From Candidatus Hydrogenedentales bacterium (GTDB lineage: Bacteria; Hydrogenedentota; Hydrogenedentia; Hydrogenedentales; SLHB01), in the NCBI GenBank assembly GCA_050950105.1, contig JBMNGZ010000008.1, positions 22,167 through 86,166 of the forward strand: a stretch of DNA of 64,000 nucleotides, read 5' to 3'. Shown piece by piece: positions 15,886 to 64,000 of this stretch. The notes under the pieces were generated by a model. The model made no database searches. It was given only the letters and a program-made list of their open reading frames with translations, and had not been told where the DNA came from. The position numbers were made by a program, and so were the translations under genes. Positions within the stretch are counted from its first letter, which is position 1. Every line of letters starts with the position of its first letter.

Positions 15886-16335
15886 ATGCGTTGTCCATTC
15901 TGCAGTCACACCGAAGGCAAAGTCGTGGATTCCCGGTCATCCAAAGATGGCGATTCCATTCGTCGCAGGCGTGAGTGCCTCCGCTGTGGCCGCCGTTTCA
16001 CCACCTACGAACGCATCGAGGAAATCGCCCAGATGGTGATCAAAAAGGATGGGCGGCGCGAGGCCTTTGATCGCTGGAAAATCAAGAGCGGTATCCTCAA
16101 AGCCTGTGAAAAACGTCCCGTCAGCCTGGAACAGGTCGATTCCCTCATCGACAGCGTCGAGCGCGCGCTGTTCAATTCCTCCGACAACGAAATTTCCACG
16201 GAAGCCATCGGGGCCGCGGTCATGGACCGGCTCAAAGACATCGATCAGGTGGCGTACGTCCGTTTCGCTTCGGTCTACCGCCAGTTCAAAGACCTGAACG
16301 AATTCATGGACGAGTTGAAGGGGCTTCTCATCTGA
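15886..16335 (+). CDS. nrdR: transcriptional repressor NrdR (zinc ribbon + ATP-cone)
   Basis: Shows the N-terminal zinc ribbon [19 protein letters not shown]...[12 protein letters not shown] followed by an ATP-cone ([16 protein letters not shown]). Confidence 0.9.
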
Positions 16336-16477
16336 CCCTCTGCCTGCCGGCCCTGACCCCACGCCGGATTTGCCCTTGTGTCTCCGGTCAAAAGCCGCTA
16401 AACTGATGTCTTGCACGCCATTGCACTGTATCTGAACGCTGCGGGACATTGCCTGCGCCATTTCGCAACAGAAACTG

Positions 16478-18781
16478 ATGACGGATCCAGAAGAACACCT
16501 TGCCGAAGACAGCTTCCGGCCCCTGGAGGCGGCGCGCGAAGGCGCCTACGACGAGCAGCTGCGCTTTGATTCCCCGCTGATGCGCCCCTCGGCGCCCGTG
16601 CGCATGGTCATCAAACGCGATGGCCGCGAAGAGCCCTACGACAAAAACAAGATCGCTGCCGCGATCCTGCGGGCCGCAGACAGCGCCGGCGAGGGTGACC
16701 GCGATCGTGCCATGAGTCTCGCCTCCGGCGTGACCATTTTTCTCAGCAAACGCTTTGAGGGCCGGGCGCCCACGGTGGCTCAGGTTCAGGATGCGGTTGA
16801 GAAAGTTCTGCTGGAAATGGGCCATGCGCGAACCGCCCTGGCCTTTGCGCGCCACCGGCGCAAACGGACCCGCGTCACCCGGCTGCGCCAGGGCGACCTC
16901 CATCATCTGCTCGATGAATTCGATGAAGCTCAATGGGAGCAGCGGCTTCGCGATGAAACCCACCAGGGCGCCCTCTTTGTCCGGACCAGCAGCGAGACCC
17001 TCTCCGGGTGGGATCGCTCGCGCATCGTCGATGCGCTGGTGCGCGAAACCCGGCTCGACCGCGCACGTGCTGAATCCATCGCGCTGGAGGTCGAGGCACA
17101 AATCCTGTCGGCCGGGATCAGCCCTCTGACCACGGCCCTCGTGCGGGAACTCGTCGACGCCAAACTCGCCGAACGCGGTCTCGAAGAATTCCGCCGCCGC
17201 CATATGCGGATCGGCGTCCCTCTGTACGACGCAGAACGCATCATCTGCACACCGGGCGAAACCGAGCGGATGTGCCGCCAGGACCCGGAGACGACCGACC
17301 GCTTCCTCGCGCAGCGGGTGAAGCGTGAATATGCCCTTACGCAGGTATTCTCCGAGCGCATCGTCGATGCCCACGTTTTCGGCGACCTGCACCTCTGCGG
17401 CCTGGGCTATGTCGACCGCTTTCAGGGTTTTTCCGCACCCATCGACTTTCTCGTGCGCTACGGTGGCGGGCTCCCGGGCGTATCCCGCCAGGCCGCTCCG
17501 CCTCAAGACCTGGAAGGCTTGTTGGTGCAGCTGGGCCGATTCCGGACGCAGGTCGACGCCCATTTCGCCGGGCCGGTCACCTGGGACATGCCCCACGTGT
17601 ACCTCAGCCCATTCCTGGATAACGCAACTGCCCAAGAACGGCAGCGCGCAGCACAAATTCTGCTCTTTGTGCTCGGCACGGACGCCGCACAACGCGCGGC
17701 AAAACCAGAACTCACCCTGAGCTGGGACGTCCCCGCACGGCTGGCGCGCCGAAAAGCCGAGGGACCGGCCCACGCCGTCGACGGCCGGGTCTACGCGGAT
17801 TTCGAATCGCTCGCCCAAGAACTCATGGAAGACATTCTGGCCACCTACCTCCAGGCCAACACCACGAACCGGCCCCTGCTGAGGTTCGTCCTCGACCGTT
17901 CCACATTTGCCCGCCGCGGCTGCCGCAGCGTCCTCGTGCGTCTGGCCGAAACGGCCCTGGCCAGCGGACTCCTCGAGATTGAGTTTGACCGCCCCTGCGA
18001 CGATGCCGCGAGCCCGCCTCCCCGGGACGGCAGCCCTGTGGCTCATGTGGTCAATCTAAACCTGGCGCGTATGGCCTTTCGTTCCGCAGACGAAACGGCA
18101 CTGATGGAAAATCTCGACGCCCTGGTTGATCTGGCCGCACAGGCGCACCAGGAAAAGTGCGCGTTTTTTGAGCGGCTCGTTGCGCTGCGCGCGCTCGGTC
18201 CCTTCGTGTTCCTCGCGGAGACGCCCGCGCATCCGCCCCTGTTCGATATCTCCAAGGCGGTCTATACCATTGCCGTGGACGGGCTCAGCGAATGCGTCGA
18301 AGCGCTTTGTGGAGCAGGGCCGCAGCAGTCCGGCGATGCCCAGGCGCTGGCGCTGCGCGTGCTGACCCGCCTCGCGGAAGGATGCCGGATCGCAAGCGAC
18401 CGCACCGGCTTGCGCATCGTGCCCGCCCAGGCCCGGTATGAATCCTCGGTCCGCCGTTTCGCGGCGCTCGACCTCCGGCCCTTCCCCGAGGAGGCCCGGC
18501 GCGTTGCGAAGAGCGATCCCATCACCCAGGACATCCACTATACGGCGGGAGCCCGTGTCGCCCGAACTGCCACCTGCACTCCGAGCGAGCGTGCCCTGCT
18601 GGAAGGAGAATTGCAGGCGCTTGTGTCTGAAGGCGCTCTTTCCCGCATCGAATTACCCGACATGGAGACCAGTCCGGAGGCCGTCGCCAGTTTTATTGAG
18701 ATGACATGGCGCCGCACAAAAATACGCCACCTGCTCCTGGAACGTCGCGGCGCGCCCACCGGATACCTGGTATACGAATGA
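16478..18781 (+). CDS. ATP-cone domain protein, putative ribonucleotide-reductase-like (class III NrdD-like N-terminal region) lacking a recognizable glycyl-radical C-terminus
   Basis: It has an N-terminal ATP-cone (VRMVIKRDGREEPYDKNKIAAAILRA) and a second ATP-cone-like segment. A GDLHLCGLGY motif resembles the GxIHIHD region of NrdD. The C-terminal 100 aa contain no CxxC pairs or RVxGY motif. The gene lies directly downstream of nrdR. Confidence 0.4.
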   Translation: MTDPEEHLAEDSFRPLEAAREGAYDEQLRFDSPLMRPSAPVRMVIKRDGREEPYDKNKIAAAILRAADSAGEGDRDRAMSLASGVTIFLSKRFEGRAPTVAQVQDAVEKVLLEMGHARTALAFARHRRKRTRVTRLRQGDLHHLLDEFDEAQWEQRLRDETHQGALFVRTSSETLSGWDRSRIVDALVRETRLDRARAESIALEVEAQILSAGISPLTTALVRELVDAKLAERGLEEFRRRHMRIGVPLYDAERIICTPGETERMCRQDPETTDRFLAQRVKREYALTQVFSERIVDAHVFGDLHLCGLGYVDRFQGFSAPIDFLVRYGGGLPGVSRQAAPPQDLEGLLVQLGRFRTQVDAHFAGPVTWDMPHVYLSPFLDNATAQERQRAAQILLFVLGTDAAQRAAKPELTLSWDVPARLARRKAEGPAHAVDGRVYADFESLAQELMEDILATYLQANTTNRPLLRFVLDRSTFARRGCRSVLVRLAETALASGLLEIEFDRPCDDAASPPPRDGSPVAHVVNLNLARMAFRSADETALMENLDALVDLAAQAHQEKCAFFERLVALRALGPFVFLAETPAHPPLFDISKAVYTIAVDGLSECVEALCGAGPQQSGDAQALALRVLTRLAEGCRIASDRTGLRIVPAQARYESSVRRFAALDLRPFPEEARRVAKSDPITQDIHYTAGARVARTATCTPSERALLEGELQALVSEGALSRIELPDMETSPEAVASFIEMTWRRTKIRHLLLERRGAPTGYLVYE

Positions 18782-19921: not shown

Positions 19922-21106
19922 CTATTCTGCGTCAGCCGCCGGTTGCGGTTCCAGCGCCGGCGCCTCGGCCGGTGGGTCGGCCGGCGCGATGTCTTTCAGC
20001 GTTACCGTAAAAGTAGAACCTTCGCCGGGTTCGCTGTCCACCTTGACCTTGCCCGCATACAGCAGGGCCAGCTTTTTCACGATCGACAAGCCCAGACCGC
20101 TGCCCAGGATGCCCGAGGTGCTCGAGTTCTTGATCCGCACGAAGTCATTGAACAGTTTCCCCGCTTCGTCTCGGGTCATTCCGATGCCGGTGTCTTTCAC
20201 CGCGATGTGGAGGAGATCCTCGTCACGGGAGAGCGTGACGGCAACGTGTCCATCGTCCTTGTTGTATTTCACGGCGTTCGAGATGAGATTGTTCATGATA
20301 ATCTCAAGTTCGCCCGTGTCCGCCCACAAGAGCATATCGCCCGTTTGATGCAGGTCGATGCTGATCTTTCGGGACTGTGCTTCGGGGAGAAAGGTCTCGA
20401 TCGCGCGCTCCGCCATGCTTCCGGCGTCCACACGTTCCATCTCGCGCCGTTTCTGGCCGGATTCGATGCGCGTCAGGTCCAGCAGGTCGGCAATCATTTT
20501 TCGCATCCCCTGGATCCGGTCCAGGCAGCGAAAAATGACCTGGTTTATGGCCTGTGGATTTTCGCCGAGGGTCCCATCGCGTACGACGTTCAAATAGCCT
20601 TCGATGGCGTTAATCGGCGCTTTGAGTTCATGTGCGAGCACTGAAATGAACTGAAAGCGCACCTGGCGCTTTTCCTGGGCCAGCCGGCGCGCCTGGCGCG
20701 CCACCATCAGGTGCATGGCCGCTTTCGTAACCGTACTTTTCAGTTCCGTCGGAGTGAAGGGTTTTGCCAGAAAATCGTAGGCCCCCTGTTTCGTGGCGCG
20801 CACTGCGGTCTCGATCGACGCGTAGGCCGTGATCATCACGGTCAACGTTTCGATGTCTCGCTTATGCAGCTCCTCCAGCACATCCAGGCCGCTGATGCCG
20901 GGGAGTTTCAGGTCGAGCAGCAGGATCTGGGGCGGCTCCGCTGTAATTTTCTCAAGCGCTTCCTCGCCGGTCTCCGCCAGTTCCACCTGGAACTGCACGG
21001 ACTCGTCCATGTCGGGGATGTCCACGCTGAAATCGCGCAGGGCGCGTGCAACCCCCATGCGCATGCCCATTTCGTCGTCACAAACCAGCAGCTTCAGCGT
21101 TTCCAT
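19922..21106 (-). CDS. hybrid response-regulator/histidine kinase (REC-HisKA-HATPase_c)
   Basis: The start at METLKLLVCDDE (GGGAG Shine-Dalgarno upstream) gives a receiver domain with DDE...D...K positions (LLLDLKLPG). The H-box is LAHELKAPI. The N, G1 and G2 boxes are NLISNAVKYN, DTGIGM and GSGLGLSIV. Confidence 0.75.
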   Translation of the reverse strand: METLKLLVCDDEMGMRMGVARALRDFSVDIPDMDESVQFQVELAETGEEALEKITAEPPQILLLDLKLPGISGLDVLEELHKRDIETLTVMITAYASIETAVRATKQGAYDFLAKPFTPTELKSTVTKAAMHLMVARQARRLAQEKRQVRFQFISVLAHELKAPINAIEGYLNVVRDGTLGENPQAINQVIFRCLDRIQGMRKMIADLLDLTRIESGQKRREMERVDAGSMAERAIETFLPEAQSRKISIDLHQTGDMLLWADTGELEIIMNNLISNAVKYNKDDGHVAVTLSRDEDLLHIAVKDTGIGMTRDEAGKLFNDFVRIKNSSTSGILGSGLGLSIVKKLALLYAGKVKVDSEPGEGSTFTVTLKDIAPADPPAEAPALEPQPAADAE

Positions 21107-21224
21107 AGTACTCCCTTCGGCCGGTGGCGTCGATTGCCCGTCAAGGCCGCGTGGCGCATGGACCGCCACCACATCCAACATCCGCTCTGCTCTGGTACGC
21201 GCCCGATGGCGCCCGGCGGCCAAA

Positions 21225-21617
21225 TCAGCGAATCAGCCGCTCGATTTCGTGTTGCAGTTGTTCAAAACGGACCGGCTTGTCCAGCAGCGCATCGGCTTTG
21301 ACCCAGGCGCGCTCCTCTTCCGTCGCCGCATCGAAGGCCATGCCGGTCTCGTTGGCGACACCCGTGCAGATTACCACAGGACATCCGGGATAGGTCTTTT
21401 TGATCTCCCGGCACAAGGTGAAGCCCGCATCCATTTCTTCCATCATCAGGTCGATCACGGCCATGTCCGGCTGGGTGGAACGCAAGAGATTGCGCGCTGC
21501 GTTCAGGCCTGCTGCGGTAAGCACTTTGTATCCCGCTGCTTCAAGCTGCACTTTCTGCTGAAAGAGAAAGTCTTCGTCGTCATCAACTACCAGGATCATC
21601 TTTTTCTCGTCGCTCAT
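21225..21617 (-). CDS. single-domain response regulator (CheY/Spo0F-like receiver)
   Basis: A 130-aa protein with ILVVDDDEDF, the phospho-acceptor region AVIDLMM, and a conserved K in LLDKP. It has no output domain. Confidence 0.75.
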   Translation of the reverse strand: MSDEKKMILVVDDDEDFLFQQKVQLEAAGYKVLTAAGLNAARNLLRSTQPDMAVIDLMMEEMDAGFTLCREIKKTYPGCPVVICTGVANETGMAFDAATEEERAWVKADALLDKPVRFEQLQHEIERLIR

Positions 21618-21637
21618 TACGCCATCCCATCTATGGG

Positions 21638-21663
21638 AACTGCCGGCTTCGGCGCCGGCAGTT
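21638..21663 (-). other. perfect 10-bp stem / 6-nt loop hairpin between the hydrogenase-kinase gene and the receiver gene
   Basis: AACTGCCGGC-ttcggc-GCCGGCAGTT in the 136-bp gap. No U-tract follows, so it looks like an attenuator or processing hairpin rather than an intrinsic terminator. Confidence 0.3.
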
Positions 21664-21753
21664 TGCCCGTCATTCAGCTCAACGCACCAAACACCTTACG
21701 ATACCGCAATCCAGGTTGGGAATGAAACTTTCGCTCTTTGCCTGCATCGGCGG

Positions 21754-23820
21754 CTACGCGCCCAGCAACTCTTCTTCGCCGCCCAGGCCGATGCTCATCT
21801 CTACGGATTCCGGCTGGCCGGTCTGCCTGTGCCGAGGCAGCGAGATCTTGAATGTTGTGCCTGTCTGCCCCTTGGCCGGGTCTGAATTCGATTCCACGCG
21901 GATGTCTCCATGGTGCATTTTGACGATGCCGTAGGTCACCGCCAAGCCCAATCCTGTGCCAACACCGAGTTGTTTCGTCGTGAAAAAGGGGTCGAAAATC
22001 CGCGAGAGGTTCTCTTTTTTGATGCCCGTGCCTGTATCGACGATCTGCAGCATAATCCGGTCTGCTTCGTCCGTCAGCCGAACCGTCAGCACTCCGCCGT
22101 CGGGCATCGCCGCGAGGGCATTGCCAACCAGATTGGCCAGCACCTGCGTCATTTGATCGCGATCGATATCCGCCATGGGGACGCTCATTTCGTTCTCAAA
22201 CCGGACTCGTACGTTCTCGGGCACCGTGTTCGCTCGGAGCACGTGCTCGAGCATGTCCCCAACGTCGACAGACTCGAAAAGGACCTTGTTCTGTCGCGCA
22301 AAGTGCAAGAGCCCCGCCACGATCTTCTTGCAGCGGTCGGCATGCTCCGAGATCATCTGGAGGTCTTCCAGCATTTGGACATTCCCGCCGAACTCATCCT
22401 TGATGATGTGGGCGTACATCAGCACGATGCCCAGCGGGTTGTTCAATTCGTGTGCGATGCCCGCGGCCAACTGGCCCATGCTCGCCAGCTTTTCCGACTG
22501 CACCAGGGCCGACCGCGCTTCCGCGAGCTGCTCGTTCGACTGATTGAGATCCTGGATGGTCGTCGCCAGCAGCTCGATCGTGTGCGGGAGGCACATCGCG
22601 GTTTCCGCCAGCCCTTTGTAGATCGCAATGGCATGTTCGCGGCAGGTCTCGTATCCGCAGGCGCCGCAATTGAGCTCGTCGCCCGGTAAAAACTTGCCCA
22701 TCCGCTCCATCAGCTCGCGGATCTGACCCTCCGACGGCACCGCGATCCGCTGATCGTCCGGCCGGTACGTCCGGCTCAAGTCCAGCGTGCTGAATTCCTG
22801 CATCGCGTCCGCCCACTCCGCCTCGGCGGCGTTTTTCATGCGGCGGCGCACATACGAGCTTACCCGGCAGCGCCGGACGTATTGCGGGTCCTGGTTCGTC
22901 GTCCCCGGCCCCATGATGCAGCCTTTGCAGGCGAGGGTTTCCAGCAGACGCACCTCAAAAAATCCCGCTGCAAACTCGCTGATCGCTTCAGGAAAATCGA
23001 CGCGACCATCCGCCACCGCCACATTGCCGTCAACGAGGTCCTCGACAATGTTAGCCGCCTGCAGAAGGCCCCGGCTGACCGGGAACAGACCGCCGTAGCG
23101 CGCGTGTGGCGGGTCAAAATTGCTCGCATCGACCGATTCCGGCGTGATGTTTCGCGCCGCCAGCAGCGCCTGCAATTCGGCGAAAGTCAGGACGCTCTGT
23201 ACGTCATCGGGCAGCTCGTCGCTCGCGGCCTCGCCTTTCTTCGCGATGCAGGGGCCGATGAACACAATCTTCAACCCCGGTCCATGCTGCTTATGCAGCA
23301 CGCGCGCCATCGCCACCATCGGCGACACGATGGGCGCCAGCGATGTGACCAAGTCCGGCTGGTAGCGCTGCACGTACGCCACAATGGACGGGCAGGTCGT
23401 TGCCACAAAGCGCTTATCCTGCGTCGTTTCGATCAGCTTTCGGTATTGATCCGCCACAAGATCGGCGCCAAAGGCCACCTCGTGGACATAATCGAAGCCA
23501 AGCGCGCGCAACATGCCCACGACGCGCTCGTACTCGCAATCATCGAATTCCACTGGAAAGCTCGGTGCGAGCAGCGCCGCCACCTTAGCTTCTCCGGCCA
23601 GCAGCGCCTCGACCTCCGCCTTGGAATCCCAGACGCGTTTCGCGCCCTGGCTGCACACGCGAACACAGTTGCCGCAACCAATGCACCGGCTGCAGATCAC
23701 ATCCGCCTGACCGTCCACGATGCGGATGGCTTTCGCGGGACATTCCCGCACGCAGGTGAAACAGACGCGGCACCGTTCTTTAATGGTGGTGACCAGCGGT
23801 ATGTTGGATGCGCTTTTCAT
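21754..23820 (-). CDS. [FeFe]-hydrogenase-like sensory protein: 2x[4Fe-4S] ferredoxin + H-cluster domain + extra Cys motif fused to a HisKA/HATPase_c histidine kinase
   Basis: The N-terminus has CRVCFTCVRECP and CSRCIGCGNCVRVC. The H-domain has L2 (GPCIAKKGE) and L3 (ETLACKGCIMGPG), but L1 reads ATTCPSI instead of TSCCPxW. An extra CGACGYETC...C motif follows. The kinase part has the H-box IAHELNNPLG, N-box LVGNALAAM, and G-boxes DTGTGI and GLGLAV. Confidence 0.7.
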   Translation of the reverse strand: MKSASNIPLVTTIKERCRVCFTCVRECPAKAIRIVDGQADVICSRCIGCGNCVRVCSQGAKRVWDSKAEVEALLAGEAKVAALLAPSFPVEFDDCEYERVVGMLRALGFDYVHEVAFGADLVADQYRKLIETTQDKRFVATTCPSIVAYVQRYQPDLVTSLAPIVSPMVAMARVLHKQHGPGLKIVFIGPCIAKKGEAASDELPDDVQSVLTFAELQALLAARNITPESVDASNFDPPHARYGGLFPVSRGLLQAANIVEDLVDGNVAVADGRVDFPEAISEFAAGFFEVRLLETLACKGCIMGPGTTNQDPQYVRRCRVSSYVRRRMKNAAEAEWADAMQEFSTLDLSRTYRPDDQRIAVPSEGQIRELMERMGKFLPGDELNCGACGYETCREHAIAIYKGLAETAMCLPHTIELLATTIQDLNQSNEQLAEARSALVQSEKLASMGQLAAGIAHELNNPLGIVLMYAHIIKDEFGGNVQMLEDLQMISEHADRCKKIVAGLLHFARQNKVLFESVDVGDMLEHVLRANTVPENVRVRFENEMSVPMADIDRDQMTQVLANLVGNALAAMPDGGVLTVRLTDEADRIMLQIVDTGTGIKKENLSRIFDPFFTTKQLGVGTGLGLAVTYGIVKMHHGDIRVESNSDPAKGQTGTTFKISLPRHRQTGQPESVEMSIGLGGEEELLGA

Positions 23821-23828
23821 ACTTGACC

Positions 23829-25550
23829 TCAGATCATAACCTCGCGTTTGGCGTAGTGTGTGTGGAGCAGTTGGTGGCTCTTTTCGCCGAGCGGCTCGCC
23901 CAGAAACTCTTCGTAGAGCCGTTGGATCGCCGGATTTCCGTGCGAGGTGCGCACGGGCTCGTCCCGGTCGATCGTATACAGCGCCTGCATCCGCGCCCGG
24001 ATGGCGTCCGGGTCTGCGTTGAGCGGTTGCCCGCCGCCCGCGATGCAGCCGCCGGGGCAGGTCATCACTTCGATGAAATGAATGTCGTCGCGCCCGTTGC
24101 GAATTTCTTCCAGCAAGAGCCGCGCGTTCTGCAGGCCACTGACTACCGCTACGCCAATCGGGATGCCGTTAATCTCAAGTTTGGCCTCTTTGCGCCCCTC
24201 GAACCCTCGGATCGCTTCCACTTTGAGGCCGGGCAGTTCCTCGCCGGTCAGCAGGTAGTGTGCCGTGCGGATCGCCGCTTCCATCACCCCGCCGCTCGCG
24301 CCGAAAATCTTGCCCGCCGTGCTGCGCTCGCCAAACGGCGTATCGGCGTGTTCGGGGGCCAGCGATTGCATGTCCATGCCGCGCATGCGTATGACCCGCG
24401 CCAGTTCCCGCGTGGTCAGGACCGCGTCGACATCGGGCCTGCCGTCCCGGGAATGTTCCGGCCGTCCCGCTTCGAATTTCTTGGCCACACAGGGCATGAT
24501 CGCCACACTGAAGATATCCTCTGGAGCGATACCTTCCCGCTCCGCGAAAAACGACTTGATCACCGCTCCCATCATCTGCTGCGGGCTCTTGCAGGTCGAG
24601 AGGTTGTCGATCATTTCCGGGTAGAACTCTTCCACAAATTTGATCCAGCCCGGCGAACAACTGGTCATCATGGGAAGTTTTCCGCCGGTGCGGATGCGAT
24701 GAGCCAGTTCCGAGGCCTCTTCCATGATCGTCAGGTCCGCCGAAAACGACGTGTCGAACACCTGGTCAAAACCGAGTCTGCGCAACGCCGCCACCAGCAT
24801 GCCGTCTACGTCCGCGCCCGGTTTCAGACCGAATTCCTCGCCCAGGGTCACCGACACGCTCGGCGCGTGCTGCACCACCACGAGCTTCGTGGGGTCTGCG
24901 ATGGCATTCAGCACTTCCTTGATATAACTCTGCTCGCGCAGCGCGCCTGTCGGGCACACCATGATGCACTGGCCGCAGTTGATGCAGCTCGAAACGTTGA
25001 GCCCTTCGCTGAACGCCGTTCCGATCACGGTCTGGCTGCCGCGGCCCACAAAATCGATGGCCGAGACTCCCTGCACTTCCTCACACACGCGCACGCATTT
25101 CCCGCAGAGGATGCATTTGGCGGGCTCGCGTACGATGGCGGGGTTCGACGAATCCACATGGTATTCATTCTTGCCGCCCGAGTAGCGCCGTTCACGCACG
25201 CCCAGCTCATTGGCCAGACCCTGCAGGTCGCAATGGCCGCTGCGCACGCAATACAGGCAATCGTCGGGGTGGTTCGCGAGCAGCAGCTCGATGATCGTCT
25301 TGCGCGCTCGCAACGCCCGGGGCGAATGCGTCTGGACCCGCATCCCGTCCCGTACCGGGTAGGCGCAGCTCGGCACCAGCGCCCGCTCGCCCTCCACCTC
25401 AACCGCGCACATGCGGCAGGCGCCCGTCGGGAACAGGTTGTCCATGTTACACAAGGTCGGCACCGTAATGCCGTTCCGTTTCAGCGCATCCAGCAGCATC
25501 TCGCCGCTTTTCGCCTCAATCTTCCGGTTATTGACTTCGATGCTAAGCAT
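23829..25550 (-). CDS. hydA: [FeFe]-hydrogenase catalytic subunit HydA (NuoG-like N-terminal FeS domains + H-cluster domain)
   Basis: The start is at MLSIEVNN (GAGGAA Shine-Dalgarno; the upstream in-frame ATG at 25577 overlaps the hydB stop region). It has a 2Fe-2S site (CNMDNLFPTGACRMC), a His-ligated cluster (HPDDCLYCVRSGHC) and 2x CxxCxxCxxxCP motifs. H-cluster motifs L2 (MPCVAKKFE) and L3 (EVMTCPGGCIAGGGQP) are canonical, while L1 is MMTSCSPGW (a Ser where the second Cys is expected). Confidence 0.85.
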   Translation of the reverse strand: MLSIEVNNRKIEAKSGEMLLDALKRNGITVPTLCNMDNLFPTGACRMCAVEVEGERALVPSCAYPVRDGMRVQTHSPRALRARKTIIELLLANHPDDCLYCVRSGHCDLQGLANELGVRERRYSGGKNEYHVDSSNPAIVREPAKCILCGKCVRVCEEVQGVSAIDFVGRGSQTVIGTAFSEGLNVSSCINCGQCIMVCPTGALREQSYIKEVLNAIADPTKLVVVQHAPSVSVTLGEEFGLKPGADVDGMLVAALRRLGFDQVFDTSFSADLTIMEEASELAHRIRTGGKLPMMTSCSPGWIKFVEEFYPEMIDNLSTCKSPQQMMGAVIKSFFAEREGIAPEDIFSVAIMPCVAKKFEAGRPEHSRDGRPDVDAVLTTRELARVIRMRGMDMQSLAPEHADTPFGERSTAGKIFGASGGVMEAAIRTAHYLLTGEELPGLKVEAIRGFEGRKEAKLEINGIPIGVAVVSGLQNARLLLEEIRNGRDDIHFIEVMTCPGGCIAGGGQPLNADPDAIRARMQALYTIDRDEPVRTSHGNPAIQRLYEEFLGEPLGEKSHQLLHTHYAKREVMI

Positions 25551-25580
25551 TGCCGTTCCTCGTTCGAGCGCGTCCACGCG

Positions 25581-27656
25581 CTATTGTTTGCCCATGCGGT
25601 AAAGCGCCGCGCCTTCATGCCAGTCTTCGAAAGCGTCCGATGCAAACACGCTCAAGGCCTGCTCACTCTCGCGGCGTTCACGGTCGATCTCTTCCGCGCC
25701 CGGAATCCGAAGCCGTGCGGCGTGTATCGGGCACACGTCCACACAGGTCCCGCAACCGATGCACTTGTCCTCAATGATGTAATGCACTTTTTTCGGCACG
25801 CCCACGATCGCCCCGTCCACGGGGCAACGCTGCGCGCAGAGGGTGCAGCCGTCGCACAATTCCACGTCGATCTCGAAGGAGCGCAGCTCCTGGCAGACCC
25901 CCGCGGGGCAGCGCCGCTCGTAGATGTGGGCCTCATATTCGTCGCGGAACCAGTGCAGTGTGCTCAATACCGGGTTCGGGGCCGTCTGGCCCAGGCCGCA
26001 GAGGCTCGTGTCGCGAATGACCTCGGCCGTCCGATTGAGCATCATGACGCCTTTGAAGCGTTCGAGCGCCTGGAATTTCGATTCGCTTTTGCGGCCCCGC
26101 GTGATGCGTTCGAGTATCTGGAGCATACGCAGCGTGCCTTCCCGGCAGGGGATGCATTTTCCGCAGCTTTCCCGCTGGATGAACTCCATGAAGAACTTGG
26201 CCACGTCGACCATGCACGTGTCTTCGTCCATCACGACCAGGCCGCCGGAACCCATCATCGCGCCCACGGTCTTCAGCGATTCGTAATCGATGGCGATGTC
26301 CAGATGCTGGTCGGGGATGCACCCGCCGGAGGGACCGCCGATCTGCACCGCCTTGAATTTCTTTCCGCCCGGGATCCCGCCGCCGATATCAAACAAGACC
26401 TGGCGCAGCCGGGTGCCCATCGCCACTTCGACCAGGCCGGTCAGCGCGATCTTGCCGGAGAGCGCAAACACCTTGGTGCCTTTGCTCGTCTCCGTGCCTA
26501 TCGCCGCGAACGCTTCCGCTCCTTTTTCCGCAATCCGCGGGACATTCGCCAGGGTCTCCACGTTGTTGATGATCGTCGGTTTATCAAAGAGGCCCCGGAC
26601 GGCCGGAAACGGCGGGCGGGGACGAGGCATGCCCCGTTTCCCTTCGATGCTGTTGATCAATGCGGTCTCTTCGCCGCATACGAAGGCGCCCGCGCCCATC
26701 TTGATCACGATCTCGAGGCTGAACCCGCTGTCCTGAACGTTGTCGCCGAGGAAACCGCAGTCTTTCGCCTCGGCAATGGCGTGCTGGAGCCGTTTGATGG
26801 CCAGCGGATACTCGGCCCGGATATAAATGTAAGCCTTGCTTGCGCCGATGGCGTACGCCGCAATGGCCATGCCTTCCAAGAGCCGGTGCGGGTCGCCTTC
26901 AATCACCGCCCGGTCCATGAACGCACCCGGATCGCCTTCGTCCGCGTTGCAGACCAGATACTTGCGGTCGCTGGTCGTGCTCAGCGCGAATTTCCATTTT
27001 TTGCCCGCTGGAAACCCGCCGCCGCCCCGGCCGCGCAGCCCGCTCTGTTCAACCAGGTCGCAGACCTCGGCCGGCGTCATGGTATGAATGACTTTCGTCA
27101 GAGCCCGGTAGCCGCCGCTCGCGACATATTCTCCCAGACTCGATGGATTGATGATCCCGCAGTTCTTCAGCACCCAGCGCGTCTGCGGCGCGAAGAAAGG
27201 ATGTTCCGAAAGCCGGTCAACGTTATGCCAGGGCGCCACGCCCGGCGTGGTGAACTGGCCCAATACCATGTCCGTGGGGATCGTCTCCGACAGCACGCTT
27301 TCCAGTAAAGGCTTGACCTTGTCTTCCGTCACGTGTTTGAACGAGACGCGCGGCTTGCCCGGCAGCTGAATGTCCACCAGGGGCTCTTCGGCGCACAACC
27401 CGATGCACCCCACTTCGACAATCTCGGCGTCAATGTTGCGCAGGCGCAAGAACGCCCGGATCGCATTGAGCGACTTGCCTGCGCCCGCGCCCAGGCCACA
27501 GGTGCCCGCGCCCACGTAGATCGTCGGGCGCTCCGTCCGTTCGCGGCGCAGCAGCCGCAGTTGTTCTTCATAGTCCGCACGCACGGCCTCATCGAGGTCC
27601 GGCGTGAGACCGCATGCATAGTTTAATAAACCGTTCAGGCTGGCCGGCGGTTTCAT
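25581..27656 (-). CDS. hydB: NADH-binding hydrogenase subunit HydB (NuoF-like flavoprotein with thioredoxin-like [2Fe-2S] and C-terminal 2x[4Fe-4S])
   Basis: The start at ATG 27656 is preceded by AAGGAAA, which overlaps the hydC stop. It has the NADH/FMN motifs GRGGGGFPAGKKW and ESCGKCIPCREG, and the C-terminal clusters CDGCTLCAQRCP and CIGCGTCVDVCP. Confidence 0.9.
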   Translation of the reverse strand: MKPPASLNGLLNYACGLTPDLDEAVRADYEEQLRLLRRERTERPTIYVGAGTCGLGAGAGKSLNAIRAFLRLRNIDAEIVEVGCIGLCAEEPLVDIQLPGKPRVSFKHVTEDKVKPLLESVLSETIPTDMVLGQFTTPGVAPWHNVDRLSEHPFFAPQTRWVLKNCGIINPSSLGEYVASGGYRALTKVIHTMTPAEVCDLVEQSGLRGRGGGGFPAGKKWKFALSTTSDRKYLVCNADEGDPGAFMDRAVIEGDPHRLLEGMAIAAYAIGASKAYIYIRAEYPLAIKRLQHAIAEAKDCGFLGDNVQDSGFSLEIVIKMGAGAFVCGEETALINSIEGKRGMPRPRPPFPAVRGLFDKPTIINNVETLANVPRIAEKGAEAFAAIGTETSKGTKVFALSGKIALTGLVEVAMGTRLRQVLFDIGGGIPGGKKFKAVQIGGPSGGCIPDQHLDIAIDYESLKTVGAMMGSGGLVVMDEDTCMVDVAKFFMEFIQRESCGKCIPCREGTLRMLQILERITRGRKSESKFQALERFKGVMMLNRTAEVIRDTSLCGLGQTAPNPVLSTLHWFRDEYEAHIYERRCPAGVCQELRSFEIDVELCDGCTLCAQRCPVDGAIVGVPKKVHYIIEDKCIGCGTCVDVCPIHAARLRIPGAEEIDRERRESEQALSVFASDAFEDWHEGAALYRMGKQ

Positions 27657-27669
27657 CGCTGTGGTTTCC

Positions 27670-28170
27670 TTATTCATCGGTTTCGACCTCTTCGCGGAGT
27701 TCATCCAAAATGTCACGGACCTTTTGAGGGGTCAGATTTGCGTAAAACTCGCCGTTGATGCTGATCACGGGCGCCAGACCGCAGGCGCCGATGCATGCCA
27801 CAACTTCCAGGCTGAACAGGCCGTCGCGCGTCGTTTTGCCGGGTTCAAGCGCCAGATCCTGCCGGATCGCGTCCAGGACCCCCAGCGAGCCCTTTACGTG
27901 GCACGCCGTGCCACGGCAGACTTGAATGTGATAACGCCCGAGCGGCTGAAAACGGAACTGGTTATAGAAGGTCGCCACACCGTAGATCTTGCTTGCCGGA
28001 AGCTGAAGATGTTCGCCGATACGCGCGATCGCTTCCCGTGACAGGTAGCCGTGTGTCTCCTGAACGTCCTGAAGCAGGGGGATCAGGGCATCTCGCCCCG
28101 CACCCGCGTGCCGCTCAAGAATCTCCCCAATATCCGGCTGCACGGCCGGCTGTCCCGTAATGGTGCTCAT
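27670..28170 (-). CDS. hydC: hydrogenase [2Fe-2S] subunit HydC (NuoE-like)
   Basis: Shows CRGTACHVKGS...CIGACGLAPV, a thioredoxin-like 2Fe-2S ferredoxin signature. It overlaps the rex stop by 4 nt. Confidence 0.85.
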   Translation of the reverse strand: MSTITGQPAVQPDIGEILERHAGAGRDALIPLLQDVQETHGYLSREAIARIGEHLQLPASKIYGVATFYNQFRFQPLGRYHIQVCRGTACHVKGSLGVLDAIRQDLALEPGKTTRDGLFSLEVVACIGACGLAPVISINGEFYANLTPQKVRDILDELREEVETDE

Positions 28171-28805
28171 GACATGGTTTCCTTCTGCGACGCCCGAAGG
28201 CCCGCAAAAAACGCGACCTTCTCCAGCGCCATACTCAAATCCAGGTTCTCAATGTATACATGCGGCGGAACCCAGAGGTGCGTGGGGGCAAAATTCAGCA
28301 GGCCCGACACCCCCGCACGGCAAAGACGCCGCGCGGTGTCCTGGGCCACGGCCGACGGCACTGCGATGATGCCCACCCGGATCCCTTCCGATTCCACAAC
28401 CTCTTCCAACTGCGGCATCGGATAACACCGGCACCCGTGAATCACCCGGTTCACTTTCGTCTTGTCGTTGTCGAAAGCCGCGACCAGAGGGATACGCGGA
28501 TTGCGCCGCGGCGAAAACGCCATCAGCGCGCGACCCAGGTTGCCGATGCCCACCAACGCCACTTTCTGCGCGTCGGAATGAAACAAAAAGTCGTTGATGC
28601 TTCCCGCCAGAGCCGCTACGTCGTAGCCGCGAACCGGGCTCCCGGTGTAGCCCGTGGCCATCACGTCCCGACGGACCTGCGCCGCCGTGCATCCCGACCG
28701 CGCGGCCAGCTCATGTGAAAACACATGCTGCTGCCCGGCGTCCTGCATCGCCAGCAGGACCCGCCGGTACACACTGAGCCGGGCCACGGTTTTATCGGAA
28801 ATCAC
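28167..28805 (-). CDS. rex: redox-sensing transcriptional repressor Rex
   Basis: The N-terminal winged helix (TVARLSVYRRVLL) and a Rossmann-type NADH-binding domain (VALVGIGNLGRALM) are present. I place the start at GTG 28805 (GAGGAA Shine-Dalgarno 5 nt upstream) rather than ATG 28844, because ATG 28844 lies inside a Rex operator. Confidence 0.8.
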   Translation of the reverse strand: MISDKTVARLSVYRRVLLAMQDAGQQHVFSHELAARSGCTAAQVRRDVMATGYTGSPVRGYDVAALAGSINDFLFHSDAQKVALVGIGNLGRALMAFSPRRNPRIPLVAAFDNDKTKVNRVIHGCRCYPMPQLEEVVESEGIRVGIIAVPSAVAQDTARRLCRAGVSGLLNFAPTHLWVPPHVYIENLDLSMALEKVAFFAGLRASQKETMS

Positions 28806-28833
28806 GGCAATTCCTCGCGGTTTACGGTAGAAC

Positions 28834-28866
28834 TGTGAAGACATTCACGCTGTGATTCGTTTCACA
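28834..28866. promoter_or_regulatory. two tandem Rex operator sites (TGTGAAGACATTCACG and TGTGATTCGTTTCACA)
   Basis: Both match the TTGTGAA-N4-TTCACAA Rex consensus (the second with one mismatch). They are separated by 1 nt and sit 30-60 nt upstream of the proposed rex GTG start, at the head of the rex-hydCBA-sensor operon. Confidence 0.6.
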
Positions 28867-29100
28867 GGGACTATACCACCCGAAGTGGCCTCATGTCAAG
28901 AGAAATCGTGATGCTTTATCACGATTCGACGGCTGCCTCTACGCGCTTACGGCCCTTCGATATAAGGGAGGCTTGCACTTCCGTTGCAGATCGTGCATGC
29001 TGAATCCTGCGCGAATAGCGCATCCGCGGGTTAAATGCGTGTTGATCTGCGTCTTTTTTGGGGCTCTGAGGCGCTGTGCCGGCCAAATGGAGGAGAAACC

Positions 29101-63415: not shown

Positions 63416-63544
63416 ACTCGCGTGGACTTGTTCCCAGCATGGCACGGGCGCCGGCGCATCTGCGGCGGGCGCCCGGCTGCCTGCGCTTCCTGACGGCATA
63501 CCGGCAGCGCGGGGAGAGCCTGAACCCTCCCGGAGGAGACAGTG

Positions 63545-64000
63545 GTGGATTTCCGGATCGAAACGGACTCAATGGGCGAAATGCGCGTACCGGCCGGCAT
63601 GTATTATGGTTGCCAGACCGCGCGCTCGATTGAAAACTTCAAGATCGGCACCGAAACCATGCCGCGCGAGGTTATTCATGCCTTCGGGATCCTCAAAAAG
63701 GCCGCGGCGCTGACCAACTACGAACTGGGCCTGCTCAGCCCCGACCTCCGCAGCGCCATCTGCCAGGCGGCCGGTGAGGTCGTGGATGGCCATCTGGACG
63801 CGCATTTCCCCCTGGTGGTGTGGCAGACGGGCAGCGGGACCCAGAGCAACATGAATGCGAACGAGGTCATCTCCAACCGGGCCATCGAAATTCTCGGCGG
63901 GGAGTTGGGCAGCAAAAACCCCGTGCACCCCAATGACCACGTGAATATGTCGCAATCGTCAAACGACACGTTCCCGACCGCCATGAACATCGCGGCCGCG
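63545..64000 (+). CDS. fumC: class II fumarate hydratase (3'-truncated at window edge)
   Basis: Shows the FumC/aspartase signature block [58 protein letters not shown]. The GTG start is 6 nt after GGAGGAG. Confidence 0.85.

What the first reader, a model, noticed from the sequence alone, without database searches (positions are those of the whole stretch)
19922..23820. H2-sensor-like [FeFe]-hydrogenase domain fused directly to a histidine kinase, followed by a stand-alone receiver and a REC-HisKA hybrid: a putative hydrogen/redox-sensing phosphorelay
The 688-aa protein at 21754-23820 combines an N-terminal 2x[4Fe-4S] ferredoxin, a complete H-cluster domain (L2 GPCIAKKGE and L3 ETLACKGCIMGPG intact), an extra CxxCx4C...C motif and a full HisKA-HATPase_c transmitter. 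Immediately downstream on the same strand are a 130-aa receiver-only protein and a receiver-kinase hybrid. No DNA-binding output domain is present. Sensory [FeFe] hydrogenases (HydS type) are usually described with PAS domains and Ser/Thr kinase/phosphatase partners. Here the H-domain would feed a His-Asp phosphorelay or kinase cascade, and it is co-located 3' of a structural hydABC operon under Rex control. The final output regulator is not in the window.
Basis: partly seen in the sequence, partly recalled or inferred. Interest (0 to 1): 0.8.

Follow-up and report, generated by a model that had tools for sequence, protein, structure and literature searches.

The report
Hydrogen-sensor hydrogenase fused to histidine kinase
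The gene is real and intact: a hydrogenase-like sensor domain fused to a histidine kinase, sitting behind a hydrogen-producing enzyme operon. This fusion is widespread and already catalogued, though never tested, so it is a good experimental handle rather than a discovery.

Summary
Window 21754-23820(-) encodes a 688-aa protein with 2x[4Fe-4S], an [FeFe]-hydrogenase H-domain, a Cx2Cx4Cx16C cluster, HisKA and HATPase_c. All 16 cluster cysteines and the phospho-His are invariant or nearly so in 76 relatives. The H-domain has the 'sensory' signature of group C enzymes: the proton-relay Cys is T/S/A, Met353 is Gly and Met497 is Leu.

It follows rex-hydC-hydB-hydA, with an 8-nt gap after hydA. Upstream of rex is a strong sigma70-like promoter followed by two Rex-box palindromes. 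A 130-aa receiver and a REC-HisKA-HATPase protein follow it.

The novelty claim is not supported. HydDB (2016) lists 'histidine kinase-linked' sensory [FeFe] hydrogenases. A 2024 paper on Hydrogenedentota, the phylum of this window's closest relatives, records the kinase-fused form downstream of hydA. The same architecture is seen in all of the best 120 homologs.

What I add:
- The kinase/REC-kinase pair is kept in about 42 of 45 genome loci across about ten phyla.
- The single receiver travels with hydABC.
- No DNA-binding regulator and no HPt domain is encoded nearby, so this looks like a kinase cascade, not a phosphorelay.

I found no experimental work on these fusions. Verdict: new member of a known kind, moderate interest.

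The parts
28870..28899 (-). sigma70-type promoter-like site, TTGACA-18-TATAGT with an upstream TG, at the head of the operon
   Evidence: 11 of 12 matches, the best site in 10.5 kb. Sequence read.
28833..28867 (.). Two abutting Rex-operator-like palindromes (cTGTGAaacgaaTCACAg and gcGTGAAtgtcTTCACAg) between the -10 element and the rex start
   Evidence: Each has 3 mismatches to TTGTGAANNNNTTCACAA, all at outer positions. The window holds 3 such matches in all, against 1.4 expected by chance. Function is inferred.
28167..28844 (-). rex, the redox-sensing repressor. The true start is probably the GTG at 28805, after a GAGGA
   Evidence: Put_DNA-bind_N plus CoA_binding. NCBIfam Rex, 193 bits against a cut-off of 126, with the match starting at residue 14. 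Sequence.
27670..28170 (-). hydC, the NuoE-like [2Fe-2S] subunit
   Evidence: 2Fe-2S_thioredx, E 4e-52.
25581..27716 (-). hydB, the NuoF-like FMN/NADH subunit. The start codon is uncertain and the ORF overlaps the end of hydC
   Evidence: Complex1_51K E 1e-49, NADH_4Fe-4S, and Fer4.
23829..25577 (-). hydA, the catalytic [FeFe]-hydrogenase subunit of the trimeric enzyme
   Evidence: Fe_hyd_lg_C E 3e-94 and Fe_hyd_SSU. NF040763, 839 bits against a cut-off of 765; best PDB match is 8a6t, T. kivui HydA1, E 2e-194.
21754..23820 (-). hydS-HK, a sensory-type [FeFe]-hydrogenase module fused to a histidine kinase (688 aa). It starts 8 nt after the hydA stop
23641..23781 (-). N-terminal 2x[4Fe-4S] ferredoxin domain, residues 14-60 (C17, 20, 23, 27 and C46, 49, 52, 56)
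   Evidence: All eight Cys are invariant in 76 relatives.
22906..23586 (-). H-domain, residues 79-305. H-cluster Cys are C143 (L1), C191 (L2), and C298 and C301 (L3). T142 takes the place of the proton-relay Cys, G189 of Met353 and L296 of Met497
   Evidence: AF2 pLDDT is about 85-98 here. Foldseek matches solved [FeFe] hydrogenases.
22585..22677 (-). PF04060 Fe-S motif C385-x2-C388-x4-C393-x16-C410, the junction cluster just before the kinase helices
   Evidence: All four Cys are invariant. The spacing is the same as reported for TmHydS and TamHydS (PMC8163306).
22291..22479 (-). HisKA/DHp domain, residues 448-510, with phospho-acceptor H457 in AGIAHELNNPLG. C497 in helix 2 is 99% conserved
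   Evidence: Nearest solved kinase is ZraS, 9jfj, E 1.4e-35.
21832..22164 (-). HATPase_c catalytic domain, residues 553-663, with N, G1, F and G2 boxes present
   Evidence: Conservation string (NL..NA, DtG.GI, F.PFFTTK, G.GTGLGL).
21225..21617 (-). Single-domain receiver (130 aa) with D12-D14, D56, T85 and K114. It belongs to a distinct subfamily with the conserved insert ETG..F...W.KAD
   Evidence: Loci found by searching with it lie in hyd operons.
19922..21106 (-). REC-HisKA-HATPase_c protein (394 aa from the ATG at 21106; the mechanical ORF extends to the TTG at 21223)
   Evidence: It has the same architecture as LvrB, PDB 8vc9.

Best explanation
The 688-aa protein is a group C (HydS-type) sensory [FeFe]-hydrogenase module wired directly to an NtrB/ZraS-like histidine-kinase transmitter. 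It is co-transcribed with the electron-bifurcating-type hydrogenase genes rex-hydC-hydB-hydA from a Rex-controlled promoter.

Shown here:
- the domain order
- intact ligands for three [4Fe-4S] clusters plus the H-cluster
- the sensory-type active-site substitutions
- a complete kinase core
- the conserved gene partners

Inferred mechanism:
1. H2 sets the redox state of a slow-turnover H-cluster. The ferredoxin pool contributes through the N-terminal clusters.
2. That state is passed to the Cx2Cx4Cx16C cluster, which sits about 40 residues before the phospho-His helix.
3. This shifts the kinase/phosphatase balance at H457.
4. The phosphoryl group goes to the receiver of the downstream REC-kinase, the near-obligate partner. 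That receiver gates a second kinase of different specificity.
5. The small receiver, which travels with hydABC rather than with the sensor, is a terminal acceptor or connector.

The final output is not encoded nearby. It is either an orphan regulator elsewhere in the genome or a protein-protein effect on hydrogenase expression or activity.
For: Architecture and E-values.

Conservation in 76 relatives:
- all 16 cluster Cys are invariant
- K194, E197 and the APS motif (85-87) are invariant
- H457 is in 75 of 76
- L1 is [YF]IAT[TSA]CPA
- G189 is invariant and L296 is in 72 of 76
These match the loss of Cys299, Met353 and Met497 reported for TmHydS and TamHydS (PMC8163306).

The sensor module behaves as an exchangeable input domain. 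Of 75 representatives scanned, 28 carry HATPase_c, at least 18 carry PAS, 9 carry a sigma54 activator plus HTH_8, and 2 carry MCPsignal. 73 of the 75 keep PF04060.

Structure: the AF2 model is confident over residues 1-415, and the fold matches solved [FeFe] hydrogenases and ZraS.

Gene partners:
- REC-kinase lies directly downstream in about 42 of 45 genome loci.
- Gaps are mostly 0-40 nt, and several are 4-nt overlaps.
- The single REC is present in 35 of 35 loci with hydABC against 2 of 7 without (Fisher p 2.5e-5).
- Of 47 metagenome loci found by searching with the single REC, 41 hold hydA and 42 hold HydS-HK.
- hydG, hydE and hydF maturase genes follow the cassette in many loci.

The two kinases differ at DHp positions H+7 and H+11: G and M in the sensor kinase, N and G in the second (read). 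That these positions set partner specificity is my recollection of the EnvZ work, not something tested here.

Promoter and Rex boxes.
Against: - No experiment exists for any kinase-fused member.
- H2 binding, cluster content and phosphotransfer are all inferred.
- The authors of PMC11406978 could not recognise standard H-cluster motifs in the proteins they class as group C1 and doubted that those sense H2. The motifs here are divergent but every ligand is present.
- The DHp region of the monomer model has low confidence (pLDDT 30-60), so the cluster-to-helix coupling is not modelled.
- Who phosphorylates whom among the two kinases and two receivers is not resolved. Three loci (L010, L043 and short L020) lack the REC-kinase.
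- In this window the gaps before REC (136 nt, with a GC-rich hairpin) and before REC-kinase (118 nt) are longer than usual.
Confidence: 0.6

Rival explanations
1. It is a general redox (ferredoxin or Fe-S) sensor kinase. The H-domain is a degenerate scaffold that carries only Fe-S clusters, or no [2Fe] subsite. The kinase reports the reduction state of the ferredoxin pool rather than H2.
For: - The N-terminal 2x[4Fe-4S] domain, a ferredoxin-interaction module, is invariant.
- The proton-transfer Cys is lost.
- PMC11406978 reports difficulty finding canonical P1-P3 motifs in the Hydrogenedentota proteins it classes as group C1.
- Rex in the same operon already shows that redox is the regulatory theme.
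Against: - All four H-cluster Cys are invariant over about ten phyla. So are the pocket residues that contact the [2Fe] ligands in CpI: APS, K194 and E197. A pure Fe-S scaffold would not need them.
- The cassette is repeatedly followed by the H-cluster maturase genes hydG, hydE and hydF, even where hydABC is absent.
- The related TmHydS and TamHydS bind a functional H-cluster (PMC8163306).
Confidence: 0.15
2. The canonical pair is sensor kinase to single-domain REC. The REC-kinase is a separate branch, phosphate sink or phosphatase rather than the main downstream step. The output is the small REC acting by protein-protein contact on Rex or HydABC.
For: - Gene order in the window puts REC immediately after the kinase.
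- The REC subfamily has a conserved, unusual alpha4-beta5 insert (ETG..F...W.KAD), which suggests a dedicated interaction surface.
- This REC is found next to hydA even without HydS-HK in L078, L091 and L099.
- It co-occurs with hydABC.
Against: - About a dozen genome loci keep HydS-HK plus REC-kinase with no single REC between them or nearby.
- The REC-kinase is the most constant partner, in about 42 of 45 loci.
- No direct evidence exists for either pairing.
Confidence: 0.2
3. It is a structural or catalytic extra subunit (the 'T' subunit) of the HydABC complex. Its ATPase domain would have a non-signalling role, for example regulating complex assembly.
For: - It starts 8 nt after hydA in the same operon.
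- PMC11406978 names it BfuT, as a subunit of the sub-type V cluster.
- PMC8542988 raises a metabolic role for a group C1 enzyme that sits next to bifurcation-type subunits.
Against: - It has a complete HisKA with an invariant phospho-His and an E-x-x-N phosphatase motif. It also has two conserved receiver partners with intact Asp pockets.
- The same sensor module is fused elsewhere to sigma54 activators and MCP domains, which are purely regulatory outputs.
- Several loci have the pair without hydABC.
Confidence: 0.05

Closest known systems
Thermotoga maritima HydS (TmHydS; group C, M2f) and Thermoanaerobacter mathranii HydS (TamHydS; group D, M2e), the putative sensory [FeFe] hydrogenases
   Same: - N-terminal 2x[4Fe-4S], H-domain and a C-terminal Cx2Cx4Cx16C cluster
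- loss of the proton-relay Cys299
- Met353 replaced by Gly as in TmHydS, and Met497 replaced by Leu as in TamHydS
- gene placed next to a trimeric group A hydrogenase (PMC8163306)
   Different: TmHydS continues into a PAS domain, and its presumed partners are Ser/Thr kinase/phosphatase-type proteins. TamHydS has no fused output. Here the junction cluster leads straight into HisKA-HATPase_c, with no PAS hit.
HydDB [FeFe] group C1, 'histidine kinase-linked (putative)'
   Same: The idea is the same: a sensory [FeFe] hydrogenase that signals through a histidine kinase (PMC5037454).
   Different: In the published examples the kinase is usually a neighbouring gene, not a fusion (PMC6163223, PMC8542988). 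I could not run the HydDB classifier. The Hydrogenedentota paper files the kinase-fused protein downstream of hydA under C3, not C1.
Hydrogenedentota sub-type V cluster 'BfuTABC', whose BfuT carries a His-kinase domain. Its best HydDB hit is Caldithrix abyssi WP_006928132.1 (PMC11406978)
   Same: The phylum matches that of the window's closest relatives: the window protein is 95% and 89% identical to Hydrogenedentota MAG proteins. The gene order is the same, hydC-hydB-hydA followed by the kinase-fused H-domain protein. hydA has the same Ser variant of the P1 motif.
   Different: That paper does not mention the two receiver genes ('response regulator' occurs 0 times). It does not analyse the ligands of the T protein and gives no mechanism. 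That the window protein belongs to their sub-type V is my inference from gene order and domains. It was not checked against their data set.
[NiFe] regulatory hydrogenase system HoxBC-HoxJ-HoxA (HydDB group 2b, 'histidine kinase-linked')
   Same: It works alike in outline. A low-turnover hydrogenase reports H2 to a histidine kinase that controls hydrogenase genes (PMC5037454 Table 1).
   Different: The metal site and fold are unrelated ([NiFe] against [FeFe]). There the sensor and kinase are separate proteins joined through a PAS-like domain, and a DNA-binding response regulator (HoxA) is part of the system. Here the sensor and kinase are fused and no DNA-binding regulator is nearby.
ZraS, AtoS and NtrB-type kinases, and CckA
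   Same: The kinase core is most similar to these: ZraS 9jfj E 1.4e-35, and NCBIfam AtoS at 200 bits and ZraS at 181 bits.
   Different: All NCBIfam scores are far below the family cut-offs, so it is not an ortholog of any of them. It has no transmembrane or periplasmic sensor. No sigma54-dependent partner is in the window, and sigma54 promoter-like sites are not enriched.
LvrB of Leptospira (PDB 8vc9), a REC-HisKA-HATPase protein in a multi-kinase cascade
   Same: It has the same domain order and size as the downstream REC-kinase (382 against 394 aa). It also lacks a DNA-binding output.
   Different: The score is well below the NCBIfam cut-off for LvrB or LvrA, so this is an architectural analogue only.

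Membership tests
Group C (HydS-type) sensory [FeFe] hydrogenase | H-domain (PF02906) with four Cys ligands for the H-cluster (L1, L2 and two in L3) | tested here: met
   E 1.6e-46. C143, C191, C298 and C301 align to the hydA motifs and are 76/76 conserved.
Group C (HydS-type) sensory [FeFe] hydrogenase | Loss of the proton-relay Cys (CpI C299) and replacement of Met353 and Met497 | tested here: met
   T142 (family T/S/A/P), G189 (76/76) and L296 (72/76). The criterion is taken from PMC8163306. CpI numbering was transferred through the window's own HydA, not through a direct CpI alignment.
Group C (HydS-type) sensory [FeFe] hydrogenase | N-terminal 2x[4Fe-4S] domain plus a C-terminal Cx2Cx4Cx16C cluster | tested here: met
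   The spacing is exactly C385-x2-C388-x4-C393-x16-C410.
Group C (HydS-type) sensory [FeFe] hydrogenase | PAS domain fused after the H-domain (M2f / C3 as usually described) | tested here: not met
   Pfam gives no PAS hit at E <= 0.01. Residues 306-447 are modelled as helices plus the Fe-S motif. HisKA follows directly.
Group C (HydS-type) sensory [FeFe] hydrogenase | Gene adjacent to a trimeric group A3-type hydrogenase operon | tested here: met
   The same holds in 29 of 45 genome loci (directly upstream) and 41 of 47 REC-anchored metagenome loci.
Group C (HydS-type) sensory [FeFe] hydrogenase | Binds an H-cluster, with low turnover and high H2 sensitivity | not testable with these tools
   This needs maturation, FTIR/EPR and activity assays.
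HydDB subgroup assignment (C1, C2 or C3) | k-NN classification of the catalytic-domain sequence against HydDB references | not testable with these tools
   HydDB is not available here. The literature is inconsistent for the fused form: C1 by definition, C3 for the cluster type in PMC11406978.
HisKA-class sensor histidine kinase | DHp domain with a conserved phospho-acceptor His in an H-box | tested here: met
   HisKA E 3.6e-12. H457 lies in AGIAHE.NNPLG and is 75/76 conserved.
HisKA-class sensor histidine kinase | HATPase_c with N, G1, F and G2 boxes | tested here: met
   E 9.7e-25. The boxes are conserved.
HisKA-class sensor histidine kinase | ATP-dependent autophosphorylation and transfer to a cognate receiver | not testable with these tools
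   This is a biochemical assay.
Multi-step His-Asp-His-Asp phosphorelay | An HPt (PF01627) or Spo0B-like histidine phosphotransferase between two receivers | tested here: not met
   None of the three proteins has an Hpt hit. The weak PF10090 hit (21.7 bits, below the 22.9 cut-off) overlaps the region just before and into HATPase_c. No such gene recurs among the conserved gene clusters of the loci.
Classical two-component system with a transcriptional output | A response regulator with a DNA-binding or other effector domain encoded with the kinase | tested here: not met
   The window has only three REC-containing ORFs and none has an HTH. No such family recurs in 61 genome loci or in the 47 longer metagenome loci mapped from the 80 fetched.
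Rex regulon member | A Rex repressor gene plus a TTGTGAAnnnnTTCACAA-type operator in the promoter region | tested here: inconclusive
   The Rex gene is clear. Two abutting sites, each with 3 outer mismatches, lie between the -10 element and the rex start. Window-wide the match count (3 against 1.4 expected) is not significant on its own. Binding was not tested.

The most novel reading that the evidence does not exclude
The conserved trio is the sensor kinase, the REC-kinase and the hydrogenase-linked single receiver. It never comes with a DNA-binding regulator. The most novel reading is that it forms a self-contained H2-driven kinase cascade whose end point is post-translational. In this reading the small receiver, with its conserved ETG..F...W.KAD surface, binds Rex or the HydABC complex when phosphorylated. 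It would thereby tune an electron-bifurcating hydrogenase directly in response to H2.
Probability: 0.15. Interest if true: 0.65.

Novelty: new member of a known kind. Interest (0 to 1): 0.38.

Why it matters
How putative sensory [FeFe] hydrogenases pass an H2 signal to the cell is still unknown. The studied examples, TmHydS and TamHydS, have no easily measured output. In the kinase-fused form the H-cluster is coupled to an enzymatic readout (autophosphorylation) inside one polypeptide, with two obvious phosphoryl acceptors encoded next door. That makes H2-dependent signalling directly testable in vitro.

The cassette occurs in loci labelled as about ten phyla of anaerobes and sits beside hydrogenases of the kind that set fermentative H2 output. 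Its logic therefore matters for understanding H2 cycling in sediments, digesters and guts. The idea and the class are already in the literature, however. This window adds one more copy, not a new kind of system.

Tried and rejected
1. [quoted passage not shown] Pfam gives no hit, and the model shows helices plus the Fe-S motif. Rejected.

2. A DNA-binding or sigma54-type response regulator near the cassette. I clustered all ORFs of the 61 genome loci. The recurring extra families were HydG, HydE, HydF and an aspartase-like lyase, not regulators. Pfam on ORFs around L012, L010, L043, L003 and L021 found none either. A REC/HK search of the window found only a third, unrelated hybrid kinase.

3. 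Sigma54 promoters. TGGCAC-N5-TTGCW with 2 mismatches gave 25 matches against 31 expected, and none lay upstream of the operon. Rejected.

4. An intrinsic terminator separating hydA, hydS, REC and REC-kinase. No convincing site was found in the gaps. There is only a GC-rich hairpin without a T-run at 21640-21661.

5. A possible defect in HydA. Its L1 motif is TSCSPGW rather than TSCCPGW. This turned out to be the majority form among cassette HydAs (26 of 34). It is shared with the solved A. woodii HydA1, 7q4v, and is already noted in PMC11406978. It is not an anomaly.

6. hydE, hydF and hydG in the window. None was found. There is only a truncated aspartase-like ORF at the 3' edge.

7. Assigning kinase-receiver pairs by co-variation. 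Not attempted, because about 45-90 cassettes are too few and are confounded by phylogeny. The specificity positions of HK1 are almost invariant, so they carry no signal.

8. A search for experimental work on kinase-fused [FeFe] sensors. Searches returned nothing relevant.

Full report

Yes. The minus strand of the window carries a tight row of genes:
- rex, 28167-28844
- hydC, 27670-28170, NuoE-like
- hydB, 25581-27716, NuoF-like
- hydA, 23829-25577. Fe_hyd_lg_C scores E 3e-94, and NCBIfam 'NADH-dependent [FeFe] hydrogenase' scores 839 bits against a cut-off of 765.
- the 688-aa protein, 21754-23820, which starts 8 nt after the hydA stop
- a 130-aa receiver, 21225-21617
- a REC-HisKA-HATPase_c protein, 19922-21223

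Pfam places these domains on the 688-aa protein:

| Domain | Residues | E-value |
|---|---|---|
| Fer4 dicluster | 14-60 | |
| Fe_hyd_lg_C | 79-305 | 1.6e-46 |
| PF04060 'FeS' | 382-412 | 1.7e-8 |
| HisKA | 448-510 | 3.6e-12 |
| HATPase_c | 553-663 | 9.7e-25 |

One correction: the last gene most likely begins at the ATG at 21106 (METLKLL..., 394 aa), because its orthologs are about 390 aa.

**2. Is the H-domain a real H-cluster domain?**

I aligned the protein with 75 relatives: 45 from genome loci across many phyla and 30 from the protein search. All eight Cys of the N-terminal 2x[4Fe-4S] domain are 76/76 conserved. So are the four H-cluster Cys (C143, C191, C298, C301) and the four Cys of C385-x2-C388-x4-C393-x16-C410.

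Alignment to the window's own HydA places these residues:
- C143 on the Cys before the Pro of the L1 motif
- C191, K194 and E197 on the L2 motif MPCxxKKxE
- C298 and C301 on the L3 motif
- A85-P86-S87 on the APS motif

All of these are invariant in the family.

The family consensus for L1 is [YF]IAT[TSA]CPA. The residue corresponding to the proton-relay Cys is therefore Thr, Ser or Ala. The residue corresponding to Met353 is an invariant Gly, and Met497 is Leu. The literature gives the loss of the relay Cys and replacement of both Met residues as the mark of the putative sensory enzymes TmHydS and TamHydS. It also gives the same Cx2Cx4Cx16C motif (PMC8163306).

An AlphaFold2 model is confident over residues 1-415. 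Foldseek matches it to solved [FeFe] hydrogenases (CbA5H, T. kivui HydA, DdH, CpI) and, for the C-terminal part, to ZraS. Neither the sequence search nor the Foldseek search of the PDB returned a group C sensor, so none appears to be solved.

**3. Is the transmitter complete?**

Yes.
- H457 sits in AGIAHELNNPLG and is 75/76 conserved.
- The N, G1, F and G2 boxes are conserved.
- The nearest solved kinase is ZraS (E 1.4e-35). The nearest NCBIfam models are AtoS, ZraS and CckA, all far below their cut-offs.

Both receivers have the full acidic pocket, phospho-Asp, Thr/Ser and Lys.

No HPt domain is present in any of the three proteins. 'Phosphorelay' in the strict sense is therefore not supported. 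The arrangement is two kinases and two receivers.

**4. How common is it, and are the neighbours conserved?**

- *Protein search.* It returned about 8000 candidates at E <= 1e-10. The best 120 (58-99% identical) all have the same Pfam architecture. Where a source gives a name, the names are Hydrogenedentes, Phycisphaerae, Planctomycetes, Latescibacteria and Verrucomicrobia.
- *Genome scan.* A scan of one genome per species gave 61 loci. The closest are Hydrogenedentota MAGs (95% and 89% identity), so the window very probably comes from that phylum. Other loci are labelled Planctomycetota, Myxococcota, Lentisphaera, Bacteroidota, Fibrobacteraceae, Acidobacteriota, Chromatiales, Ignavibacteria and Thermoleophilia.
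- *Neighbours in the 45 loci with a full-length ortholog.* The REC-kinase lies directly downstream in 40 by automatic count and 42 after checking ORF-calling misses. L010 and L043 truly lack it, and L020 is too short to tell.
- *Single receiver.* It lies in between in 29 loci, and hydA lies directly upstream in 29. These two features coincide in 28.
- *Loci without hydABC.* They lack the in-between receiver and are instead followed by hydG, hydE, hydF and an aspartase-like gene.
- *Association.* Counting any single REC in the locus, 35 of 35 loci with hydABC have one, against 2 of 7 without (Fisher p 2.5e-5).
- *Spacing.* Gaps between the three genes are mostly 0-40 nt, and several are 4-nt overlaps.

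As an independent sample I searched metagenome contigs with an alignment of the small receiver. Of 47 loci of at least 6 kb, 41 hold hydA and 42 hold the sensor kinase.
- The usual order is hydC-hydB-hydA-sensor kinase-REC-REC kinase.
- Seven loci have hydA-REC-sensor kinase-REC kinase.
- Three have the REC after hydA with no sensor kinase.

The small receiver is therefore a dedicated, hydrogenase-operon-specific subfamily. It has a conserved insert, ETG..F...W.KAD.

**5. The sensor module is an exchangeable input domain.**

Residues 1-430 alone hit 974 clusters (50%-identity representatives) at E <= 1e-30. I scanned 75 full-length representatives from the best 150 with Pfam:

| Feature | Number of 75 |
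|---|---|
| H-domain | 75 |
| PF04060 | 73 |
| HATPase_c | 28 (25 with HisKA) |
| PAS | at least 18 |
| Sigma54 activator | 9 (8 with HTH_8) |
| MCP signalling domain | 2 |

This supports a sensing role, with the PF04060 cluster as the constant junction to the output. It also shows that the kinase fusion is one of the commonest forms of this module.

**6. Regulation of the operon.**

A near-consensus sigma70-type promoter (TTGACA-18-TATAGT with TG) lies at 28899-28870. It is followed by two abutting palindromes of the Rex-operator type, cTGTGAaacgaaTCACAg and gcGTGAAtgtcTTCACAg, at 28867-28833. These precede the probable rex start, a GTG at 28805 after GAGGA.

Control of the operon by Rex is thus plausible but untested. 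I found no terminator within the operon. I also found no enrichment of sigma54 promoter-like sites.

**7. Most likely mechanism.**

*Shown:* the anatomy, the ligand conservation, the sensory-type active site, the complete kinase and receivers, and the conserved gene partnership.

*Inferred:*
- H2 reduces a slow H-cluster.
- The N-terminal clusters connect it to the ferredoxin pool.
- The junction [4Fe-4S] sits about 40 residues before the DHp helix and reports this state to the kinase.
- Phosphoryl transfer goes first to the receiver of the REC-kinase, the near-obligate partner.
- The second kinase has different residues at DHp positions H+7 and H+11: N and G, against G and M in the sensor kinase. 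That these positions set partner specificity is my recollection of the EnvZ work and was not tested here.
- The second kinase then acts on the small receiver or on an orphan regulator elsewhere.

I put 0.6 on this overall picture. The exact wiring is much less certain. The rivals are:
- a ferredoxin/redox sensor without a [2Fe] site (0.15). The invariant pocket residues and the hydEFG linkage argue against it.
- sensor kinase to small REC as the main path, with a protein-protein output (0.2)
- a non-signalling extra subunit (0.05)

**8. Comparison with what is known.**

[quoted passage not shown] In published genome descriptions C1 is usually an H-domain protein next to a kinase gene.
- The 2024 study of 179 Hydrogenedentota genomes reports group C proteins with HATPase_c or histidine-kinase domains. 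It describes a 'sub-type V' cluster in which such a protein (BfuT) lies downstream of bfuA, as in Caldithrix abyssi. It also notes the Ser variant of the HydA P1 motif (PMC11406978). It does not mention the receiver genes and offers no mechanism.
- I found no experimental study of a kinase-fused member.
- In function the system resembles the [NiFe] HoxBC-HoxJ-HoxA H2 sensor. It is unrelated in fold and lacks a HoxA-like regulator.
- The downstream REC-kinase has the architecture of LvrB (PDB 8vc9).

**9. Verdict.**

The feature is real, intact and under strong conservation. It is also a common and catalogued class, so it is a new member of a known kind.

What is new here is modest:
- the near-obligate REC-kinase partner
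- the hydrogenase-linked small receiver
- the consistent absence of a DNA-binding output or HPt
- the range of outputs fused to the same sensor module

Its value is practical. It is probably the most direct system in which to test H2-dependent signalling by an [FeFe] sensor. Interest is 0.38. The most novel reading still open is a post-translational output through the small receiver onto Rex or HydABC. I give it a probability of about 0.15 and an interest of about 0.65 if true.

Noticed in passing
window 23829-25577 (-), HydA residues ~302-310: The catalytic HydA has the L1 motif MMTSCSPGW, with Ser where the second Cys of the canonical TSCCP sits. 26 of 34 HydAs in related cassettes share it, as does the solved A. 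woodii HydA1 (7q4v). PMC11406978 already notes it. By my recollection the second Cys is an H-cluster ligand in CpI. How the Ser variant ligates the cluster therefore deserves a look at the 7q4v coordinates.
   Followed up: partly
window 49633-52105 (-): A PAS-PAS-HisKA ORF (50462-52105) and a HATPase_c-REC ORF (49633-50430) are two halves of one hybrid histidine kinase. They are split by a +1 frameshift near a GGG run at about 50440-50470. This is either a pseudogene or an assembly error.
   Followed up: partly
window 22330-22332 (-), residue C497 of the sensor kinase: A Cys in the second DHp helix (ADRCKKIV) is conserved in 75 of 76 relatives. ZraS has Leu and KinB has Ala at that position. 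It might be a redox-sensitive or cluster-proximal residue. It remains unexplained.
   Followed up: no
P0121-P0270 (representative proteins, not in the window): The same sensor module (2x[4Fe-4S], H-domain, PF04060) is fused in other organisms to a sigma54 activator domain (9 of 75 sampled, 8 of them with HTH_8) and to MCP signalling domains (2 of 75). The first group are one-component H-domain enhancer-binding proteins. I did not check whether the sigma54 fusions have been described.
   Followed up: partly
window 21640-21661 (-), gap between the sensor kinase and the REC gene: A GC-rich 8-bp hairpin (CTGCCGGC-gccgaa-GCCGGCAG) without a following T-run lies in an unusually long 136-nt gap. Orthologous loci mostly have gaps of 0-40 nt.
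   Followed up: no
L026 1164-3020 (-); also L073, L074, L077 and many other metagenome loci: Several loci carry a second, divergent HydS upstream of hydC and place rex after the REC-kinase. L026 is labelled Bacteroidota. Its copy is 618 aa and has no kinase domain. This matches the 'two bfuT genes' remark in PMC11406978.
   Followed up: partly
L021, L023, L027, L033, L022, L029, L030, L015, L102, L115, L120, L123 (just upstream of hydC): A different single-domain receiver (~130 aa, only 40-60 bits to the window's REC) is encoded immediately upstream of hydC in many loci from Acidobacteriota, Chromatiales, Ignavibacteria and other groups. Receiver-only proteins thus seem to be a recurrent part of these hydrogenase operons.
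   Followed up: no
window 15886-18781 (+) and 63542-64000 (+): NrdR and an anaerobic class III ribonucleotide reductase (NrdD-like with an ATP-cone) lie about 1 kb beyond the GH130 gene that follows the cassette, which fits an anaerobic lifestyle. A truncated aspartase-like lyase sits at the 3' edge of the window. Such a lyase lies between hydG and hydF in related loci, but no hydE, hydF or hydG is in the window.
   Followed up: no
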